A stretch of DNA of 64,000 nt from Escherichia phage ESCO5: the sequence record NC_047776.2, one strand, 5' to 3'. Below, one piece after another: positions 24,193-29,782 of the stretch. The position numbers and the translations under genes were made by a program. The notes beneath the pieces are model-generated. The model was given only the letters and a program-made list of their open reading frames with translations. It searched no databases and had not been told where the DNA came from. Each line of letters starts with the position of its first letter. Position 1 is the first letter of the stretch.

Positions 24193-24267
24193 GGCCCTGT
24201 AGCTCAATGGGAGAGCTGTCGGCTCATAACCGATAGGTAGCTGGATCGAAACCAGCCAGGGCCACCA
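24193..24267 (+). tRNA. tRNA with CAT anticodon (Met or Ile2)
   Basis: GGCCCTG acceptor pairs CAGGGCC; anticodon loop CTCATAA; encoded CCA. Confidence 0.7.
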
Positions 24268-24269
24268 AC

Positions 24270-24344
24270 GTCTTTATGGTGTAATGGATAGCACAGGAGT
24301 CTTCTAAACTCTTAGTCAAGGTTCGATTCCTTGTAAAGACACCA
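24270..24344 (+). tRNA. tRNA-Arg (TCT)
   Basis: Acceptor GTCTTTA/TAAAGAC; anticodon arm GGAGT-CTTCTAA-ACTCT; T-loop TTCGATT; CCA. Confidence 0.65.
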
Positions 24345-24540
24345 GAACATTTTAACATGAATTAGCTCAAGTGATTTGAACCCACTACTGATCATGGTGG
24401 CAGAGAATGAGGCAAGTATGTCAGACATTATAAACAAAGGCCACGGTTATATTAGAAGACATAAATGCTCGAAGAGCACCGTTCGTGGAGAACGGGGGTT
24501 GGTGGAGTCACCATTCATGGTAAAATGTTTTAAAAAACTA

Positions 24541-24569
24541 TTGACAACAAACATTATTTTATGTTAGAT
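24541..24569 (+). promoter_or_regulatory. sigma70-like promoter
   Basis: TTGACA, 17-nt spacer, TTAGAT; upstream of tRNA-Ser. Confidence 0.4.
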
Positions 24570-24578
24570 TATAAGTAT

Positions 24579-24669
24579 GGAAGGGCAAATCGACGTGGCG
24601 ACGAAAACGGTCTTGAAAACCGCCGAGCTTGAAAGAGCCTTGGGAGTTCGACTCTCCCTCCTTCCGCCA
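24579..24669 (+). tRNA. tRNA-Ser (TGA), type II
   Basis: Acceptor GGAAGGG/TCCTTCC, loop CTTGAAA, long variable arm; close to E. coli Ser(UGA) arms. Confidence 0.65.
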
Positions 24670-24674
24670 GATTA

Positions 24675-24760
24675 GGTAGATTGGTGAAATGGTAGCCACG
24701 ACAGTTTGCTAAACTGTAGTCGGAAACGGCGTGTAGGTTCGAGTCCTACATCTACCGCCA
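24675..24760 (+). tRNA. tRNA-Ser (GCT), type II
   Basis: Acceptor GGTAGAT/ATCTACC, anticodon loop TTGCTAA, long variable arm, CCA. Confidence 0.6.
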
Positions 24761-24890
24761 AGTTCTTTTTAATGTAGCTTACTTTAGCAGAGTAAATCTT
24801 CGGCAAGTGGCGGTAACCACTTTACCGATACCTCATAGTTAGTGGTGCGAACACTGGCTATTTTAAAAAGAATTTAAATATTAGTATTTA

Positions 24891-24978
24891 GGTGAGTTAA
24901 TTCCGTAGGGGTAGCGGGGCAGACTGTAAATCTGTTATCATTGCGATTCGGGTGGTTCGACTCCATCACTCACCACCA
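24891..24978 (+). tRNA. tRNA-Tyr (GTA), type II
   Basis: Acceptor GGTGAGT/ACTCACC, anticodon arm CAGA-CTGTAAA-TCTG, long variable arm, CCA. Confidence 0.6.
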
Positions 24979-24984
24979 AATTAA

Positions 24985-25070
24985 GATGAGTTGGCTGAAT
25001 GGTTTAAGCGGCGGACTGTTAATCCGTGTTCGAAAGAACAATATAGGTTCGAATCCTATACTCATCGCCA
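24985..25070 (+). tRNA. tRNA-Asn (GTT) with an unusually long variable arm
   Basis: Acceptor GATGAGT/ACTCATC, discriminator G; anticodon arm GCGGA-CTGTTAA-TCCGT matches E. coli tRNA-Asn; ~15-nt GTTCGAAAGAAC hairpin before T-arm; 86 nt. Confidence 0.5.
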
Positions 25071-25080
25071 GAATTATGGA

Positions 25081-25158
25081 CTTGTAGAGTTAAGGTAAAC
25101 CCCCAGTCGCCAATAGGCTTCTGGAATTGCAGGTATCGAATCCTGCCGAGTCCCAGCA
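25081..25158 (+). ncRNA. tRNA-like element, anticodon arm unresolved
   Basis: Acceptor GGACTTG/CGAGTCC and T-arm GCAGG-TATCGAAT-CCTGC present; central region does not fold into canonical D/anticodon arms by eye; no CCA. Confidence 0.3.
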
Positions 25159-25160
25159 TT

Positions 25161-25235
25161 GCTCCTATAGTATAATGGCTATTACAACGGTTTTGTAATC
25201 CGTGGATCTCTGTTCGATTCAGTGTGGGAGCACCA
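25161..25235 (+). tRNA. tRNA-Thr (TGT) (putative)
   Basis: Acceptor GCTCCTA/TGGGAGC, D-arm like E. coli Gly, anticodon loop TTTGTAA, CCA. Confidence 0.5.
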
Positions 25236-25508
25236 ACACAACATTAAGAGCACTGTGATTGATCGTCGTATCCTGTGCACAAGGTCTGCTCGAAAGACAG
25301 TGTTCTTAGTATTGTGTTGATCACAAAAAGAGTCACCCGAAACTTGACCGGAGTAGGGTTGGATGGGGCAAAATGAGAAGCGGCTCTCCCATCGACAGCA
25401 ACGAAGAATAATATTTGACTTTTGTTTTGTATTATTTTAAGTTAGCTTACCGAACGTAGGGCTAGTCACCCAACGGGATACTCGTCACTGTCCCACTCAA
25501 TAAAACTA

Positions 25509-25538
25509 TTGACAACCAATAGTAAAATGTAGTATAGT
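25509..25538 (+). promoter_or_regulatory. sigma70-like promoter
   Basis: TTGACA, 18-nt spacer, TATAGT; upstream of tRNA-Gly. Confidence 0.45.
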
Positions 25539-25549
25539 AAAGATGTAGG

Positions 25550-25623
25550 GCGTTCTTGGTGTAGCGGTAGCATTCCGTCCTTCCAAGTCGGCGGCACGAG
25601 TTCGATCCTCGTAGAACGCTCCA
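25550..25623 (+). tRNA. tRNA-Gly (TCC)
   Basis: Acceptor GCGTTCT/AGAACGC, anticodon loop CTTCCAA, T-loop TTCGATC, CCA. Confidence 0.6.
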
Positions 25624-25721
25624 AATTATTTAATAAAGGGTTGCCAGAAAACTTTCTCTTTTACTCATGGTTTTCTCCTTCTCTCACACTTCTTCTGGTT
25701 GCCCTTCATTAAATGATTTAT

Positions 25722-25797
25722 TGGTTTGTAGTGTAGTCCGGTAGCACACGACACTTTGACTGTCGTAGGTTTGGTTCAAATCCAGACAGACCAGCCA
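25722..25797 (+). tRNA. tRNA-Gln (TTG)
   Basis: T1-A72 start TGGTTTG/CAGACCA like E. coli Gln, anticodon arm CGACA-CTTTGAC-TGTCG, CCA. Confidence 0.65.
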
Positions 25798-25870
25798 TAT
25801 AACAAAGGTGAGTCACTACCTTAAGTGTGAAGTTAAAAACGAGGAGCCGCCGAACACTTTCTTTTGCGGT

Positions 25871-25947
25871 GTACCTTTAGAATGTTATCACGGGACGTAG
25901 CACAGCTTGGTAGTGCGCTCGCTTTGGGAGCGAGAGGTCGAGTGTTC
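25871..25947 (+). tRNA. tRNA-Pro (TGG)
   Basis: Acceptor CGGGACG/CGTCCCG, anticodon arm CTCGC-TTTGGGA-GCGAG, CCA. Confidence 0.7.
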
Positions 25948-25953
25948 GAATCA

Positions 25954-26027
25954 CTCCGTCCCGACCAATTAAATGTTTCGTAGTTCAATGGTAGAACCCA
26001 CGACTGATAATCGTGAGACACAAGTTC
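25954..26027 (+). tRNA. tRNA-Ile (GAT)
   Basis: Acceptor TGTTTCG/CGAAACA, anticodon arm CACGA-CTGATAA-TCGTG, CCA. Confidence 0.65.
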
Positions 26028-26028
26028 G

Positions 26029-26098
26029 ATTCTTGTCGAAACAACCAGTTTCCCGTTAGACTTACAGGATAAGAGATCCACAATTTATTGTGACGCTG
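26029..26098 (+). ncRNA. tRNA-like element, anticodon arm unresolved
   Basis: T-arm GCTGG-TTCGAAT-CCAGC and acceptor-like TCCCGT/ACGGGA; interior has a CACAAT-TT-ATTGTG hairpin instead of a 7-nt anticodon loop; no CCA. Confidence 0.3.
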
Positions 26099-26125
26099 GT
26101 TCGAATCCAGCACGGGATACATAAT

Positions 26126-26204
26126 AGCGGGATAGAGGAGTCTGGTCGTCCTCGCCAGTTTCATATGCTGGAGATCATTGGTTCAAATCCAATTCCCGCC
26201 TCCA
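26126..26204 (+). tRNA. second tRNA with CAT anticodon (Met or Ile2)
   Basis: Anticodon arm CCAGT-TTCATAT-GCTGG, T-loop TTCAAAT, 3' TCCCGCC-T-CCA; possible 1-72 A/C mismatch. Confidence 0.55.
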
Positions 26205-27069: not shown

Positions 27070-27462
27070 ATGAATCTAAAGACTAAAACTGTATTAGGTT
27101 TTGTTTTAATTGTTGTTCTTATTTTTGCCGGAATGTTTGCTTATAACAAGATACGTGAGTCTGGCTACAAAGATGGTGTTGCCTATCAAACGCAATTATA
27201 TCAAGCAGCCCAAGCAAAAGCAAAACAGGATTTTGATGTTCTTCAAAAAAGAGCCGATGAAGAAAGAGCATTATTAAATACTCAAATAAACAACTTGTCT
27301 AAAAACAATGCACAATTAAGAGCAGATTTAGAGAAGAAGAAACAAACGATCAATGAGGATACAACGAATTATGCAAAAACTAATTCTGGCAGTATGTCTT
27401 GCTTTGCCCCTAATGATGATGGGTTGTTCATCATCAATAAAAGTTTCCCCAGTTCTTATTGA
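27070..27462 (+). CDS. i-spanin (Rz-like inner-membrane spanin)
   Basis: 130 aa; N-terminal TM helix VLGFVLIVVLIFAGMFA then coiled-coil periplasmic domain; overlaps o-spanin. Confidence 0.55.
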   Translation: MNLKTKTVLGFVLIVVLIFAGMFAYNKIRESGYKDGVAYQTQLYQAAQAKAKQDFDVLQKRADEERALLNTQINNLSKNNAQLRADLEKKKQTINEDTTNYAKTNSGSMSCFAPNDDGLFIINKSFPSSY

Positions 27463-27697
27463 TGAGTGTAAGGCTGTAGCCATAGAAAAGGTTAAAGGTC
27501 CAGATTCGGATTTGATGGATAAAGTATCGACACCTGTACCATACACTAAAAATCAAATTGCAAAAGGGGTTAGTAGATCTGAAGTTGTTAACAACCAAAC
27601 TCAAAACAACGCTCTTTGGGAGCAAGATAGACGAAAGGTTTTAGGTTTACAAACATATATTAAAACACTGCAAGAAAAAGGTATTATTGCTGAATAA
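27371..27697 (+). CDS. o-spanin (Rz1-like outer-membrane lipoprotein)
   Basis: Internal start MQKLILAVCLALPLMMMGCSSS gives lipoprotein signal with lipobox Cys; different frame, overlaps 3' end of i-spanin (track ORF 27353-27697). Confidence 0.55.
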   Translation: MQKLILAVCLALPLMMMGCSSSIKVSPVLIDECKAVAIEKVKGPDSDLMDKVSTPVPYTKNQIAKGVSRSEVVNNQTQNNALWEQDRRKVLGLQTYIKTLQEKGIIAE

Positions 27698-27706
27698 GGA
27701 GGGAAT

Positions 27707-29782
27707 GTGGCAAAGAAAAAGGCAGCAGGTAGTTTAGCTGGAGTAGATATTGAAGTAAAGGCTCAACCAGGTAAACAGACTCTTGCAATGGATTTAATGC
27801 CAGAAGTTATGATTTATGGTGGTGCCGCTGGATGTGTTTCTGCTGAAACGGAATATCTTACAAAAGATGGTTGGAAACAGATTAGTGAATATTCGGGAGA
27901 GGATATTTACCAATACAACCCTAAGAATAAGCGTTTAGAATTGGTAACACCTTACTTTGTAGAATACGATTTAAATGGAGATAATCTATACAGAATAACA
28001 AATGGTGTAGGATTGTTCCAAGAACTTAGTATGGAACACCGTTTTGTATTCTATAAGAAAAAGAAATCAAAGAAACATTTCGAGATTCTTGTAGGAGATC
28101 TTATTGCATTACAGCAAATAGGAAAACCCCTGCAAGGTTATGTAGAAAATCCATTCGGTAAACGTGTTCCTTTTAACATACCTGGTAAAAAGAGCACTTA
28201 CTTAAAAATACACGAGGTTATTTCAACAGATGATAAGAAATATTGTTTTGAGACTCCAAGCAGCTATATTGTCTTTAGACGTGGCGATCACTGCTTCGTT
28301 ACTGGGAATAGCGGCAAGTCTCGTCTGCTATTGCTGAAAGCTTTAAAATACGCCTACAAAGACCCTTTGTTTGGGGGAATACTTTTCCGTAAGAACACCA
28401 CTGCTCACCGTAAACCAGGTGGTCTGTTTACAGAAGCAAAACGTTTGTATCTTCCTTTACAACCGCACGTAAAAGAAAGTACAATGGATATCATTTTTGA
28501 AGCCACTGGTGGCGGAACCCTCAAATTCGACCATTTGGAAAATGATAACGTAACAGCAGAAACAAACCATCAGGGTACACAGTATTCAATGGTAGGTTTT
28601 GACGAGTTAACCCACTTCACGCAATATGAAATGCTCTATCTTCTGGGACGTATGCGTTCAGAATCAGAAACAAGCTTCATGTTGTGCACATGTAACCCCG
28701 ATGCAGATAGTTGGGTTTTGAATTGGGTGTTACCTTATCTTGATGAGGGTGGTTATCCTAGAGAAGATATGTGTGGTAAACAAAAATATTTCATCATTGT
28801 TAACGATGAACCTGTTTTTGCTGACACACCTGAAGAACTGAAAGAAAAATATCCAGAAAACTGTTTCATGGAAAACCCTAATACAGGGGAGACAGTTGTT
28901 ATTGAACCACAAACTTTCGTATTTATTGGTGGGACAATATTTGATAACCCAGAACTGATTAGGCTTAACCCTAATTACTTAGCACAGCTTAAATCACAAA
29001 CAGCAATTAAAAGAGCACAGCTTCTGGATGGTTGTTGGTTTGCACGTATTCAGAAAGAATCTTTCTTTCAACGTGAATGGTTACATAAAATATCTTATAA
29101 AGATGTTCCTAACAATCTTAAACTAATGCGAGCCTGGGATAAAGCTGTTTCAGTTCCTACAGAAACTTATCGTTATCCAGACTATACAACGTCTGTCAAA
29201 ATGGGTAAAGATCAAGATGGTAATATCTACATCTTTGGTGACTATGACTATGACGCTGTGGATGAGAAAAGTAAAATTTTCGGAAGGTTTAGAAGACTAC
29301 CTGGGGAAAGGGATAATCTGATTCTTAATCAATGTAAGATTGATGGACCAGAAGTTACAGTAGTGCTTCCTAAAGACCCATCTGGTGCTGGGACAATAGA
29401 ATATACAGAGTCTGCAAAGAAACTTATTCTAGAAGGTTTTGTTGTTAAACCAGACGCTATGCCAGGCAACAAGAAAAAGCTTCAGCGTTTTATGCCTTTT
29501 AGTAGTGCGTGTCAAAATGGTTTTGTTTATATTGTTGAAGATTCTTTCCCTAATGTGGAAACTCTAACCCACTTTTATAAAGAATTGGAATCTTTCAATG
29601 GTGAAAGATCTACAGCCACTATTAAAGATGACATTCCCGATGCTGCTGCTTCTTGTTTCAATACTCTGTCAAAAGAGAATACTTTTAAGGCAGTAGCTAT
29701 CCCTACAACAACAAATGCTCCTACAGGATACAGTAGAATGAACAGCGGATTTCACCAACCGTATAGTGTCCGTAAAAGATAA
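27707..29782 (+). CDS. terminase large subunit, intein-containing
   Basis: 691 aa, GTG start after AAGGAGGG; P-loop YGGAAG...SGKS split by insert; C-terminal nuclease-like domain; position before portal. Confidence 0.8.
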   Translation: MAKKKAAGSLAGVDIEVKAQPGKQTLAMDLMPEVMIYGGAAGCVSAETEYLTKDGWKQISEYSGEDIYQYNPKNKRLELVTPYFVEYDLNGDNLYRITNGVGLFQELSMEHRFVFYKKKKSKKHFEILVGDLIALQQIGKPLQGYVENPFGKRVPFNIPGKKSTYLKIHEVISTDDKKYCFETPSSYIVFRRGDHCFVTGNSGKSRLLLLKALKYAYKDPLFGGILFRKNTTAHRKPGGLFTEAKRLYLPLQPHVKESTMDIIFEATGGGTLKFDHLENDNVTAETNHQGTQYSMVGFDELTHFTQYEMLYLLGRMRSESETSFMLCTCNPDADSWVLNWVLPYLDEGGYPREDMCGKQKYFIIVNDEPVFADTPEELKEKYPENCFMENPNTGETVVIEPQTFVFIGGTIFDNPELIRLNPNYLAQLKSQTAIKRAQLLDGCWFARIQKESFFQREWLHKISYKDVPNNLKLMRAWDKAVSVPTETYRYPDYTTSVKMGKDQDGNIYIFGDYDYDAVDEKSKIFGRFRRLPGERDNLILNQCKIDGPEVTVVLPKDPSGAGTIEYTESAKKLILEGFVVKPDAMPGNKKKLQRFMPFSSACQNGFVYIVEDSFPNVETLTHFYKELESFNGERSTATIKDDIPDAAASCFNTLSKENTFKAVAIPTTTNAPTGYSRMNSGFHQPYSVRKR
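27833..28309 (+). other. mini-intein (~159 aa) inside the terminase Walker A motif
   Basis: Starts CVSAETEYLTKDG (intein block A-like) right after GGAAG, ends ...HCFVTGN followed by SGKS; excision restores GGAAGSGKS; too short for a homing-endonuclease domain. Confidence 0.6.

What the first reader, a model, noticed from the sequence alone, without database searches (positions are those of the whole stretch)
27833..28309. Mini-intein inserted in the Walker A P-loop of the large terminase
The terminase reads ...MIYGGAAG then CVSAETEYLTKDG... for about 159 residues, ending ...HCFVTGN followed by SGKSRLLL. Removing that segment restores a textbook GGAAGSGKS P-loop. The insert starts with an intein block-A-like Cys motif and ends with Asn before a Ser, so packaging ATPase activity would depend on protein splicing. 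The penultimate residue is Gly rather than the usual His, which may affect splicing chemistry or rate. The insert is too short to contain a homing endonuclease.
Basis: partly seen in the sequence, partly recalled or inferred. Interest (0 to 1): 0.7.

Follow-up and report, generated by a model that had tools for sequence, protein, structure and literature searches.

The report
Unannotated mini-intein in coliphage terminase P-loop
The DNA-packaging motor gene of this E. coli phage is interrupted, inside its ATP-binding loop, by a small self-excising protein element (an intein) that public annotation has missed; such elements are well known in phage terminases, but this one belongs to an unusual, little-described branch of the family.

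Summary
The window is Escherichia phage vB_EcoM_REC, a phAPEC8-like phage. Its large terminase (TerL, 27707-29782, 691 aa) carries a 159-aa in-frame insert (C43-N201, nt 27833-28309) between G42 and S202. Insert-free homologs read YGGAAGSGKSRL at that spot.

The insert is an intein by four tests:
- A profile of related inserts matches the solved AceL NrdHF intein (E 3e-12) and about 11,000 proteins.
- An AlphaFold model (pLDDT 90) has the intein (HINT) fold, with top hit 6ZGQ.
- Relatives of about 325 aa at the same site carry a LAGLIDADG homing endonuclease.
- dN/dS is as low in the insert (0.055) as in the host protein (0.065).

Pfam and NCBIfam miss it, and no GenBank record seen annotates it.

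The penultimate Gly is a hallmark of the clade, not a defect. It comes with Arg at B:11, Cys at F:4 and Thr at G:5, the constellation of AceL NrdHF, which is a proven class 3 intein. This intein differs in keeping Cys1, so the chemistry of the first splicing step is unresolved.

Verdict: a real intein, very probably active, and a new member of a known kind. Interest is moderate.

The parts
27697..27702 (+). Ribosome-binding site AGGAGG, 4 nt upstream of the GTG start
   Evidence: Read directly. The same motif is annotated for phi92 gene 119.
27707..29782 (+). TerL precursor ORF, 691 aa plus stop (78.7 kDa)
   Evidence: Pfam Terminase_6N on residues 202-460, E 5e-17. 100% identical to the 'putative terminase large subunit' of OM386667.1.
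27707..27832 (+). N-extein (the host-protein part before the intein), residues 1-42, ending in the first half of Walker A (G39-A40-A41-G42 = 27821-27832)
   Evidence: It aligns with the N-termini of insert-free TerLs (...GKQ.MA......YGGAAG).
27833..28309 (+). Mini-intein, 159 aa (C43-N201 of TerL), 18.6 kDa, HINT fold, no endonuclease domain
27833..27874 (+). Block A: C1-VSAETEYLTKDGW. C1, T6, E7, G13 and W14 are invariant among the TerL-site inteins.
28028..28045 (+). Block B core: S66-M-E-H69-R70-F71 (B:7 Ser, B:10 His, B:11 Arg, B:12 Phe)
   Evidence: Codons checked. H69 is invariant. The S-x-x-H-R pattern is the same as S65/H68/R69 of AceL NrdHF.
28244..28258 (+). Block F start: C138-F-E-T-P142 (F:4 Cys, followed by a Pro matching the kink Pro128 of AceL NrdHF)
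   Evidence: K136-Y137-C138 are invariant. Cys is at F:4 in 148 of 152 aligned clade copies. In the profile alignment to 6ZGQ, C138 falls on the C124A position.
28301..28312 (+). Block G end and the +1 residue: T157-G158-N159 | S(+1) = TerL T199-G200-N201 | S202
   Evidence: Invariant. In 198 clade copies, TGN occurs 142 times and SGN 28 times.
28310..29779 (+). C-extein (the host-protein part after the intein), residues 202-691. It begins with the second half of Walker A (S202-G203-K204-S205 = 28310-28321), followed by the ATPase and the C-terminal nuclease.
   Evidence: Pfam Terminase_6N on 202-460. TIGR01630 gives a weak hit on 559-654. Homologs carry Terminase_6C.

Best explanation
Residues 43-201 of TerL are an active, cis-splicing mini-intein: a HINT domain with no homing endonuclease. 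It sits between the third and fourth variable residues of the Walker A motif (G-A-A-G | S-G-K-S). The 78.7-kDa precursor cannot form a P-loop. After folding, the intein excises itself and joins G42 to S202. This gives the 532-aa, 60-kDa TerL with an intact GGAAGSGKS loop, which then works as the packaging ATPase/nuclease.

The intein belongs to a large, mainly phage and metagenomic clade. Its only characterised member is the AceL NrdHF intein. The clade's hallmarks are [ST]-x-x-H at block B (usually followed by Arg at B:11, as in this window's intein), a non-Trp hydrophobic residue at B:12, Cys at F:4, [TS]-G-N at the C-terminus, and S, C or T at +1.

The mechanism I commit to is inferred, at about 0.4 given that it splices. 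H69, C138 and T157 act as in AceL NrdHF, so the N-extein passes through a thioester on C138 (the block-F branched intermediate). It then moves to Ser202. Asn201 cyclises with help from Arg70 in place of the missing penultimate His. Cys1, which this clade keeps, makes the first N-to-S shift and hands the acyl group to C138, giving a three-nucleophile relay.

What is shown: the insert, the fold, the homology, the motif constellation, purifying selection, and endonuclease-bearing relatives at the same site. What is inferred: that it splices, and which cysteine acts first.

The mini-intein has no endonuclease and is fixed in all sampled Phapecoctavirus and Justusliebigvirus (phi92-like) phages, so it is now inherited vertically.
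For: Insert and site. The exact in-frame insert restores the P-loop. Insert-free alleles exist, for example Klebsiella phage FBKp34 TerL (514 aa, 63% identical over the host protein).

Homology.
- A profile of 15 TerL-site mini-inserts hits PDB 6ZGQ (AceL NrdHF class 3 intein) at E 3e-12. Every other PDB intein scores E 0.025 or weaker.
- The same profile finds 11,252 proteins at E<=1e-3 and 2,704 at E<=1e-10 among 1.84 billion representatives.
- Hosts sampled include primase-helicase, DnaB, a RecD-like helicase, the small subunit of ribonucleotide reductase, RtcB and TerL.

Fold.
- The AF2 model has pLDDT 90.3 and pTM 0.82.
- The top Foldseek hit is 6ZGQ (E 2e-7, TM 0.70). All of the top 50 hits are inteins, hedgehog or BIL HINT domains.

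Mobile-element ancestry. The 324-aa relative at the identical TerL site models (pLDDT 88.4) as HINT plus LAGLIDADG. Top hits are the TliVMA, PhoVMA, PI-SceI and PI-PfuI inteins, then I-DmoI.

Motifs.
- C1, H69, C138, T157, G158, N159 and S+1 are invariant among TerL-site inteins that are only 26-34% identical overall.
- The same pattern holds in about 198 clade copies.
- It matches S65/H68/R69/C124/P128/T144/G145/N146/S+1 of AceL NrdHF. There C124A and C124S abolish splicing, G145H abolishes it, and R69A slows it.

Selection. Window versus phi92: intein dN/dS 0.055, host protein 0.065, at dS of about 1.6-1.8.

Precedent for a penultimate Gly. Bethlehem gp51 splices fully and G316H slows it.

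Precedent for TerL P-loop inteins that splice: Kelley 2016.

Class-3 competence of the clade. About 6 of 198 copies have Ala, Lys or Pro at position 1 while keeping [TS]GN. F:4 is Cys in the four of them where that column aligned.
Against: - No experiment has been done on this protein.
- Curated intein models (Pfam, NCBIfam) do not detect it even at E<=1.
- A single-sequence search against PDB sequences finds nothing.
- B:12 is Phe, yet aromatic substitutions at B:12 inactivated AceL NrdHF. Phe is native in 14 of 198 clade copies.
- Against the C138 route: Cys1 is conserved in about 97% of clade copies. That fits an ordinary class 1 first step. Class 1 inteins with Cys at F:4 are known to exist.
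- dS is near saturation, so the dN/dS values are approximate.
Confidence: 0.85

Rival explanations
1. Ordinary class 1 chemistry. Cys1 (TerL C43) forms the linear thioester and Ser202 attacks it directly. C138 only replaces the usual block-F Asp as a structural or auxiliary residue and never carries the N-extein.
For: - Cys1 is present in about 192 of 198 clade copies and in all 36 TerL-site inteins.
- By published sequence criteria, class 3 inteins lack an N-terminal nucleophile.
- The A1 profile is no closer to canonical WCT class 3 inteins than to class 1 inteins. Msm and Mch DnaB are absent from the list at E<=10, while RecA, gp41-1 and DnaB class 1 inteins appear.
Against: - The closest characterised relative uses C(F:4) obligatorily, and the full H/C/T/G/R constellation is shared.
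- F:4 Cys is about as conserved as Cys1 (148 of 152).
- Variants without a position-1 nucleophile arise repeatedly in the clade. That is hard to explain if Cys1 were the only route.
Confidence: 0.35
2. Pure class 3 chemistry. C138 attacks the amide directly, as in AceL NrdHF, and Cys1 is dispensable for catalysis. Cys1 would then be retained for folding, for a redox function, or by history.
For: Homology and shared motifs with AceL NrdHF. Natural Ala1, Lys1 and Pro1 clade members exist. [quoted passage not shown]
Against: Cys1 is about 97% conserved across copies as little as about 26-34% identical. A dispensable residue would drift more than that.
Confidence: 0.2
3. Splicing is conditional. 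C1 and C138 lie close together in the active site, can form a disulfide, and hold TerL as an inactive precursor under oxidising conditions. Packaging would then be gated by the redox state of the host. This adds to either chemistry rather than replacing it.
For: Two invariant active-site cysteines. In the AceL NrdHF structure the modelled C124 thiol is 3.0 A from the N-scissile carbonyl. The class 3 Msm DnaBi1 intein is described as an oxidative-stress sensor (title and abstract). H2O2 inhibits N-cleavage of MchDnaB1.
Against: There is no direct evidence. The E. coli cytoplasm is reducing. AceL NrdHF splices quickly and constitutively.
Confidence: 0.15
4. The insert does not splice. It is either a decayed intein or domesticated HINT domain that stays in the mature TerL, or a cleavage-only BIL-like domain.
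For: No curated intein model hits it. It has no endonuclease and is fixed in the lineage. There are no experimental data.
Against: - It splits GxxxxGK[ST], so a retained 18.6-kDa domain or a cleaved chain would destroy the ATP-binding loop of an essential motor.
- All catalytic junction residues (C1, H B:10, N G:7, S+1) are invariant, and dN/dS is 0.055.
- BIL domains lack the +1 nucleophile, and here Ser+1 is invariant.
- A known decayed intein (Arth_1007) had lost H B:10 and C F:4, and this one has not.
Confidence: 0.04

Closest known systems
AceL NrdHF intein (PDB 6ZGQ; Hoffmann et al. 2020, PMC7891396), an unusual class 3 intein from an Antarctic lake metagenome
   Same: - It is the best sequence match (E 3e-12) and the best structural match (TM 0.70).
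- Block B has Ser at B:7, His at B:10 and Arg at B:11, and B:12 is not Trp.
- Cys at F:4 is followed four residues later by Pro.
- The C-terminus is Thr-Gly-Asn with Ser at +1, and there is no penultimate His.
- Both are about 146-159 aa and come from a phage context.
   Different: - AceL NrdHF starts with Ala1, is naturally split into 98 + 48 aa around a GIY-YIG endonuclease gene, sits in a ribonucleotide reductase beta subunit, and has Met at B:12.
- The window intein starts with Cys1, is contiguous (cis-splicing), sits in a TerL Walker A loop, and has Phe at B:12.
- Foldseek identity is only about 21%.
Mycobacteriophage TerL inteins (Kelley et al. 2016, PMC5050341), especially the P-loop sites TerL1-a and TerL1-b
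   Same: These are inteins in the ATPase domain of the phage large terminase, inside or next to Walker A. They were shown to splice, and splicing is required to build the active site. Phage inteins often lack the penultimate His, and Gly occurs there.
   Different: - The hosts are Terminase_1-type TerLs of actinophages. TerL1-a is inserted between the Lys and the Thr of GK|T, and TerL1-b lies one residue away.
- Here the host is a Terminase_6N-type TerL of a coliphage, and the site is three residues upstream (G|SGKS).
- The Terminase_6 intein they describe (site f) is in the C-motif, not the P-loop.
- Most of theirs carry LAGLIDADG endonucleases, and this one has none.
Canonical class 3 (WCT) inteins: MP-Be DnaB, Msm and Mch DnaB-1, Dra Snf2
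   Same: Cys at F:4, Thr at G:5, and Ser/Thr at +1. They prefer the P-loops of helicase-like ATPases, including terminases, and a phage origin has been proposed for them.
   Different: They have Trp at B:12, usually a non-nucleophilic residue 1, and a penultimate His. Their DnaB-1 P-loop site is after GK (N-extein ...SVGK|A1 in MchDnaB1). They show no detectable sequence match to the A1 profile at E<=10.
Class 1 inteins with Cys at F:4 (noted by Tori & Perler 2011, as cited in PMC3196547)
   Same: An N-terminal Cys together with Cys at block F position 4. This is formally where the window intein falls by sequence criteria.
   Different: I could not read the primary paper. I therefore do not know whether any of them share the TGN / Arg B:11 constellation, or whether their F:4 Cys was tested.

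Membership tests
Intein (protein-splicing HINT element) | In-frame insertion at a conserved host-protein site, absent from close homologs, whose removal restores the host motif | tested here: met
   YGGAAG|159 aa|SGKSRL in the window versus YGGAAGSGKSRL in many TerLs of 505-520 aa
Intein (protein-splicing HINT element) | HINT fold | tested here: met
   AF2 pLDDT 90.3. All of the top 50 Foldseek PDB hits are inteins, hedgehog or BIL domains.
Intein (protein-splicing HINT element) | Catalytic residues: block A residue 1 is Cys/Ser/Thr, block B has His at B:10, the C-terminal residue is Asn, and +1 is Ser/Thr/Cys | tested here: met
   C1, H69, N159 and S+1 are all invariant in alignment A1
Intein (protein-splicing HINT element) | Penultimate His (G:6). 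Common but not obligatory. | tested here: not met
   It is Gly (G158). The same is true in 147 of 150 clade copies. Active inteins with a native Gly are documented.
Intein (protein-splicing HINT element) | Significant match to intein sequence models | tested here: inconclusive
   Pfam and NCBIfam give no hit at E<=1. A family profile does hit a solved intein at E 3e-12 and thousands of multi-intein proteins.
Intein (protein-splicing HINT element) | Demonstrated excision with ligation of the flanking host-protein parts | not testable with these tools
   This needs expression with SDS-PAGE and mass spectrometry. Low dN/dS (0.055) is only indirect support.
Mini-intein | Splicing domain only, with no homing-endonuclease domain in frame or in another frame | tested here: met
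   The 159 aa are fully accounted for by the HINT model. There is no endonuclease Pfam hit and no other ORF of 60 aa or more across 27833-28309. Relatives of about 325 aa at the same site do contain LAGLIDADG.
Class 3 inteins (Tori et al. 2010) | No Cys/Ser/Thr nucleophile at position 1 | tested here: not met
   Position 1 is Cys (TGT 27833-27835)
Class 3 inteins (Tori et al. 2010) | Trp at B:12 (the W of the WCT triplet) | tested here: not met
   It is Phe71. Within the clade it is V, M, I, L or F. AceL NrdHF, a proven class 3 intein, has Met here.
Class 3 inteins (Tori et al. 2010) | Cys at F:4 and Thr at G:5 (the C and T of the WCT triplet) | tested here: met
   C138 and T157 are invariant. 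They align to the C124A and T144 positions of 6ZGQ.
Class 3 inteins (Tori et al. 2010) | Block-F branched thioester intermediate and an obligate F:4 Cys | not testable with these tools
   This needs C138A/S, C43A and S202A mutants and trapping of the intermediate
AceL NrdHF-like clade (named here for convenience) | Profile-level homology plus S/T-x-x-H-R, Cys at F:4, and [TS]-G-N|S/C/T | tested here: met
AceL NrdHF-like clade (named here for convenience) | Ala1 and a naturally split gene organisation (properties of the type member) | tested here: not met
   It has Cys1 and a single continuous ORF
Bacterial intein-like (BIL) / cleavage-only HINT domains | No +1 nucleophile, with cleavage rather than ligation as the main outcome | tested here: not met
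   Ser+1 is invariant and the C-terminal Asn is present.

The most novel reading that the evidence does not exclude
The window intein represents a large clade that curated models do not detect. Thousands of copies occur in phage and metagenomic helicases, terminases, ribonucleotide reductases and RtcB, and 41% of sampled copies sit at the same Walker A position G|xGK[ST]. In this reading the clade keeps both the class 1 nucleophile (Cys1) and the class 3 nucleophile (Cys F:4), and splices by a three-nucleophile relay (Cys1 to Cys F:4 to Ser+1). It would then be the living intermediate through which class-3 chemistry evolves from class 1. The sporadic Ala1, Lys1 and Pro1 members, including AceL NrdHF, would be derived forms. 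A possible by-product is that the cysteine pair makes terminase maturation sensitive to redox state.
Probability: 0.3. Interest if true: 0.65.

Novelty: new member of a known kind. Interest (0 to 1): 0.42.

Why it matters
1. Annotation. An essential gene of two well-used coliphage genera (phAPEC8-like and phi92-like, which include therapy candidates and the BASEL collection) encodes a precursor that must splice. No GenBank record or source name I saw says so. The BASEL table counts 0 inteins for a phage that has it. A 2024 paper states that no inteins are reported in coliphages.

2. Tools. Pfam and NCBIfam miss the whole clade, so intein censuses that rely on them undercount phage inteins.

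3. Mechanism. This is a cis-splicing, mesophilic relative of the only characterised non-WCT class 3 intein, in an E. coli phage, and it carries both candidate first nucleophiles. Four point mutants in E. coli could settle whether Cys1, Cys F:4 or both are needed. That bears on how class 3 splicing arose.

4. Application. A small intein from a 37 degC host, with Ser at +1, from the same clade as the fast and clean AceL NrdHF intein, may be useful for protein engineering.

Tried and rejected
- Pfam and NCBIfam scans of the insert and of the full TerL gave no intein family at E<=1.
- A single-sequence phmmer search of the insert against PDB sequences gave only noise, with a best hit at E 0.053 to a portal protein.
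- The search for homologous proteins with the insert alone returned 5 near-identical fragments, so that search was wasted. The profile searches were what worked.
- Pfam on the 325-aa relatives gave only sub-threshold LAGLIDADG_3 hits (16-17 bits against a cut-off of 22.5). Structure prediction and Foldseek resolved this.
- Tori & Perler 2011 and Brace 2010 are not in the library, and a search for 'Tfu2914' found nothing. What is known about WCT inteins that start with Cys1 or Ser1 therefore rests on secondary citations.
- A six-frame scan of the 64-kb window with the clade profile found only the TerL copy.
- G+C content is 0.33-0.35 in the intein and 0.37-0.42 in its flanks, within the local range, so there is no clear foreign signature.
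- I considered and rejected the idea that the true TerL start lies downstream of the insert. The 42-aa N-extein aligns with the N-termini of insert-free TerLs and carries half of the P-loop.
- I could not measure active-site distances because the model coordinates are not exposed.
Full report
**Origin and observation.** The window is 100% identical to Escherichia phage vB_EcoM_REC (OM386667.1, Phapecoctavirus, Stephanstirmvirinae). Window coordinate = record coordinate minus 34473. The ORF 27707..29782 (+) has a GTG start preceded by AGGAGG and encodes 691 aa. Pfam places Terminase_6N on residues 202-460 only (E 5e-17). I checked the junction codons by hand:
- G38-G39-A40-A41-G42 end at 27832.
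- C43 is TGT at 27833-27835.
- T199-G200-N201 is ACT-GGG-AAT at 28301-28309.
- S202-G203-K204-S205 follow at 28310-28321.

**More than chance.** Among 1,139 TerL homologs, dozens of proteins of about 505-520 aa read YGGAAGSGKSRL uninterrupted. The closest are 62-64% identical over the host protein; one of them is the TerL of Klebsiella phage vB_KpM_FBKp34. Thirty-five other homologs carry an insert at exactly this position, in three size classes: about 158 aa, about 146 aa (for example Vibrio phage PWH3a-P1), and about 300-328 aa. Every one starts with Cys, contains K-Y-C near its end, and ends [TS]-G-N followed by Ser. In an alignment of 15 mini-inserts that are only 26-34% identical between size classes, the invariant residues are C1, T6, E7, G13, W14, P40, H69, K136, Y137, C138, T157, G158, N159 and S+1. 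These are the intein blocks A, B, F and G.

**Identity as an intein.** Curated models fail. Pfam and NCBIfam give nothing at E<=1, and a single-sequence search of PDB sequences gives only noise.

A profile of the 15 inserts succeeds:
- It hits PDB 6ZGQ, the AceL NrdHF class 3 intein, at E 3e-12 over nearly its full length. All other solved inteins score E 0.025 or weaker.
- Against 1.84 billion representative proteins it finds 11,252 hits at E<=1e-3 and 2,704 at E<=1e-10. Many of these proteins hold two to four copies, which is typical of multi-intein proteins.
- Ten top hits scanned with Pfam are primase-helicases, DnaB, a RecD-like helicase, a ribonucleotide reductase small subunit, RtcB and terminases. 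These are classic intein hosts. Again, no Pfam intein model reaches threshold on them.

Structure agrees:
- The AlphaFold2 model of the insert has pLDDT 90.3 and pTM 0.82.
- Foldseek against the PDB returns 6ZGQ first (E 2e-7, TM 0.70). The other top-50 hits are all inteins, hedgehog autoprocessing domains or BIL domains.

**Mobile-element ancestry.**
- The inserts of about 325 aa at the same TerL site gave only sub-threshold LAGLIDADG_3 hits.
- One of them models well (pLDDT 88.4). It matches full inteins that carry homing endonucleases (TliVMA, PhoVMA, PI-SceI, PI-PfuI; E 1e-14 to 1e-10), and then the free LAGLIDADG enzyme I-DmoI.
- So this insertion site hosts complete, endonuclease-bearing inteins.
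- The window's copy is a version without the endonuclease. No ORF of 60 aa or more in another frame overlaps it, and its 159 aa are fully accounted for by the HINT model.

**Distribution, selection and annotation.**
- tblastn finds the insert in 152 phage records: all sampled Phapecoctavirus at 99% identity or more, and Justusliebigvirus (phi92-like) at about 87%.
- Between the window and phi92, dN/dS is 0.055 for the intein and 0.065 for the host protein, with dS of about 1.6-1.8. That is near saturation, so the values are approximate.
- The insert is therefore constrained as strongly as the terminase itself. This fits an element that must fold and splice. It does not fit a decaying pseudo-domain.
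- None of the GenBank records I opened (vB_EcoM_REC, vB_Ec-G1, phi92, EmilieFrey) mentions an intein, and neither do the names that sources give to cluster members.
- The BASEL collection paper says inteins were identified precisely. Its Table S5 nevertheless lists 0 inteins for Bas61 EmilieFrey, whose TerL contains the insert.

**The penultimate Gly and the class question.** It is a hallmark of the clade, not a defect. Across about 198 intein copies in the top 150 profile hits:

| Position | Residues found |
|---|---|
| G:6 (penultimate) | Gly in 147 of 150 aligned |
| G:5 | Thr or Ser in 142 |
| F:4 | Cys in 148 of 152 |
| B:10 | His in 196 |
| B:11 | Arg in 108 |
| B:12 | V, M, I, L or F; almost never Trp |
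| Residue 1 | Cys in about 192 (190 by raw count, plus two off-by-one alignments corrected by eye) |
| +1 | Ser 111, Cys 60, Thr 27 |

This is the constellation described for AceL NrdHF: S65, H68, R69, M70, C124, P128, T144, G145, N146 and S+1. In that intein:
- C124A and C124S abolish all activity.
- T144A slows splicing about tenfold.
- G145H abolishes activity through a clash with R69.
- R69A slows the reaction, consistent with Arg B:11 standing in for the missing His.

The window intein has S66, H69, R70, F71, C138, P142, T157, G158, N159 and S+1. A second precedent is the Bethlehem gp51 intein, which has a native penultimate Gly, splices completely, and is slowed by G316H.

**What remains open.** By published sequence criteria a class 3 intein lacks an N-terminal nucleophile and has Trp at B:12. 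The window intein has Cys1 and Phe at B:12, so I do not file it as class 3. Formally it is a class 1 intein with Cys at F:4, a category known to exist. Even so, its closest characterised relative is a proven class 3 intein. F:4 Cys is as conserved as Cys1. About 6 of 198 clade copies have Ala, Lys or Pro at position 1 while keeping [TS]GN, and F:4 is Cys in the four where that column aligned. That suggests the clade can run the block-F route.

The reading I think most likely (about 0.4, given splicing) is that both cysteines act in series: Cys1 thioester, then Cys138 branched thioester, then Ser202. Plain class 1 (about 0.35) and pure class 3 (about 0.2) are the alternatives. A redox switch through a C1-C138 disulfide is possible but untested.

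**Insertion site.** 82 of 198 clade copies (41%) sit at the same Walker A position, G|[SCT]GK[ST], in many different ATPases. This differs from the P-loop sites described for mycobacteriophage TerL1, where site a is between Lys and Thr and site b is one residue away. It also differs from the Terminase_6 site f, which is in the C-motif, and from MchDnaB1, which is inserted after GK.

**Verdict.** I put the probability that this is a real intein that splices at about 0.85-0.9. Inteins in terminase P-loops are established biology, so this is a new member of a known kind. It gains some interest from three things: it is unannotated in a widely used group of coliphages, it is invisible to Pfam and NCBIfam, and it carries both candidate first-step nucleophiles in a system where the mechanism is easy to test.

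Noticed in passing
Relatives only: L004 (Salmonella phage UAB_1, OL656106.1 56583-59636). The same pattern occurs in PD114, cardinal, and the 'Campylobacter' phages A150, C3, A145 and A110a.: In some phi92-like phages the TerL gene that carries this intein is also interrupted. After about nt 1223 (aa ~408, inside FIGGT|IFDNP) there is an insert of about 970 nt encoding an HNH homing endonuclease. Rfam Intron_gpI hits it at 46.1 bits (E 7.7e-10, just under the gathering score of 50). So one gene appears to carry both an intein and a likely group I intron. The 412-aa 'TerL' proteins in the databases (e.g. P0017) may be the 5' exon product: the annotated 5' CDS in UAB_1 is also 412 aa. I did not compare the sequences. 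The window's TerL has no such insert.
   Followed up: partly
window 24193-26204 (+): A cluster of 10 tRNA genes (Met, Arg, Ser, Asn, Thr, Gly, Gln, Pro, Ile, Met) lies about 1.5 kb upstream of the terminase gene.
   Followed up: no
window 27070-27462 and 27353-27697 (+): Two ORFs lie directly upstream of TerL and overlap by 110 nt in different frames. The first (130 aa) has a hydrophobic N-terminus. The second (114 aa) has a lipobox-like LMMMGC. Together they look like an i-spanin/o-spanin pair. Related records annotate the first as an Rz spanin and, in some, a shorter ORF in the second one's frame as a spanin.
   Followed up: no
window 27707 versus 27788 (TerL start): Some database entries for the same protein are 664 aa rather than 691 aa. 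That length would fit a start at Met28. This does not affect the intein, but the N-terminus of the N-extein is annotated inconsistently.
   Followed up: no
Proteins P0126-P0273 (profile hits, not in the window): Several metagenomic proteins carry two to four or more copies of this intein clade, some back to back (e.g. P0126 of 2602 aa; P0148 and P0153, where one copy ends ...GN and the next starts C...). About 6 copies have Ala, Lys or Pro at position 1. None of the ten proteins scanned is detected by Pfam intein models.
   Followed up: partly
Phage records MG065639, MG065656, MG065645, MG065689 ('Campylobacter phage' A150, C3, A145, A110a): These records are labelled as Campylobacter jejuni phages, yet they carry a TerL 99% identical to E. 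coli phi92-like phages, in genomes of about 146 kb. The host label looks doubtful.
   Followed up: no
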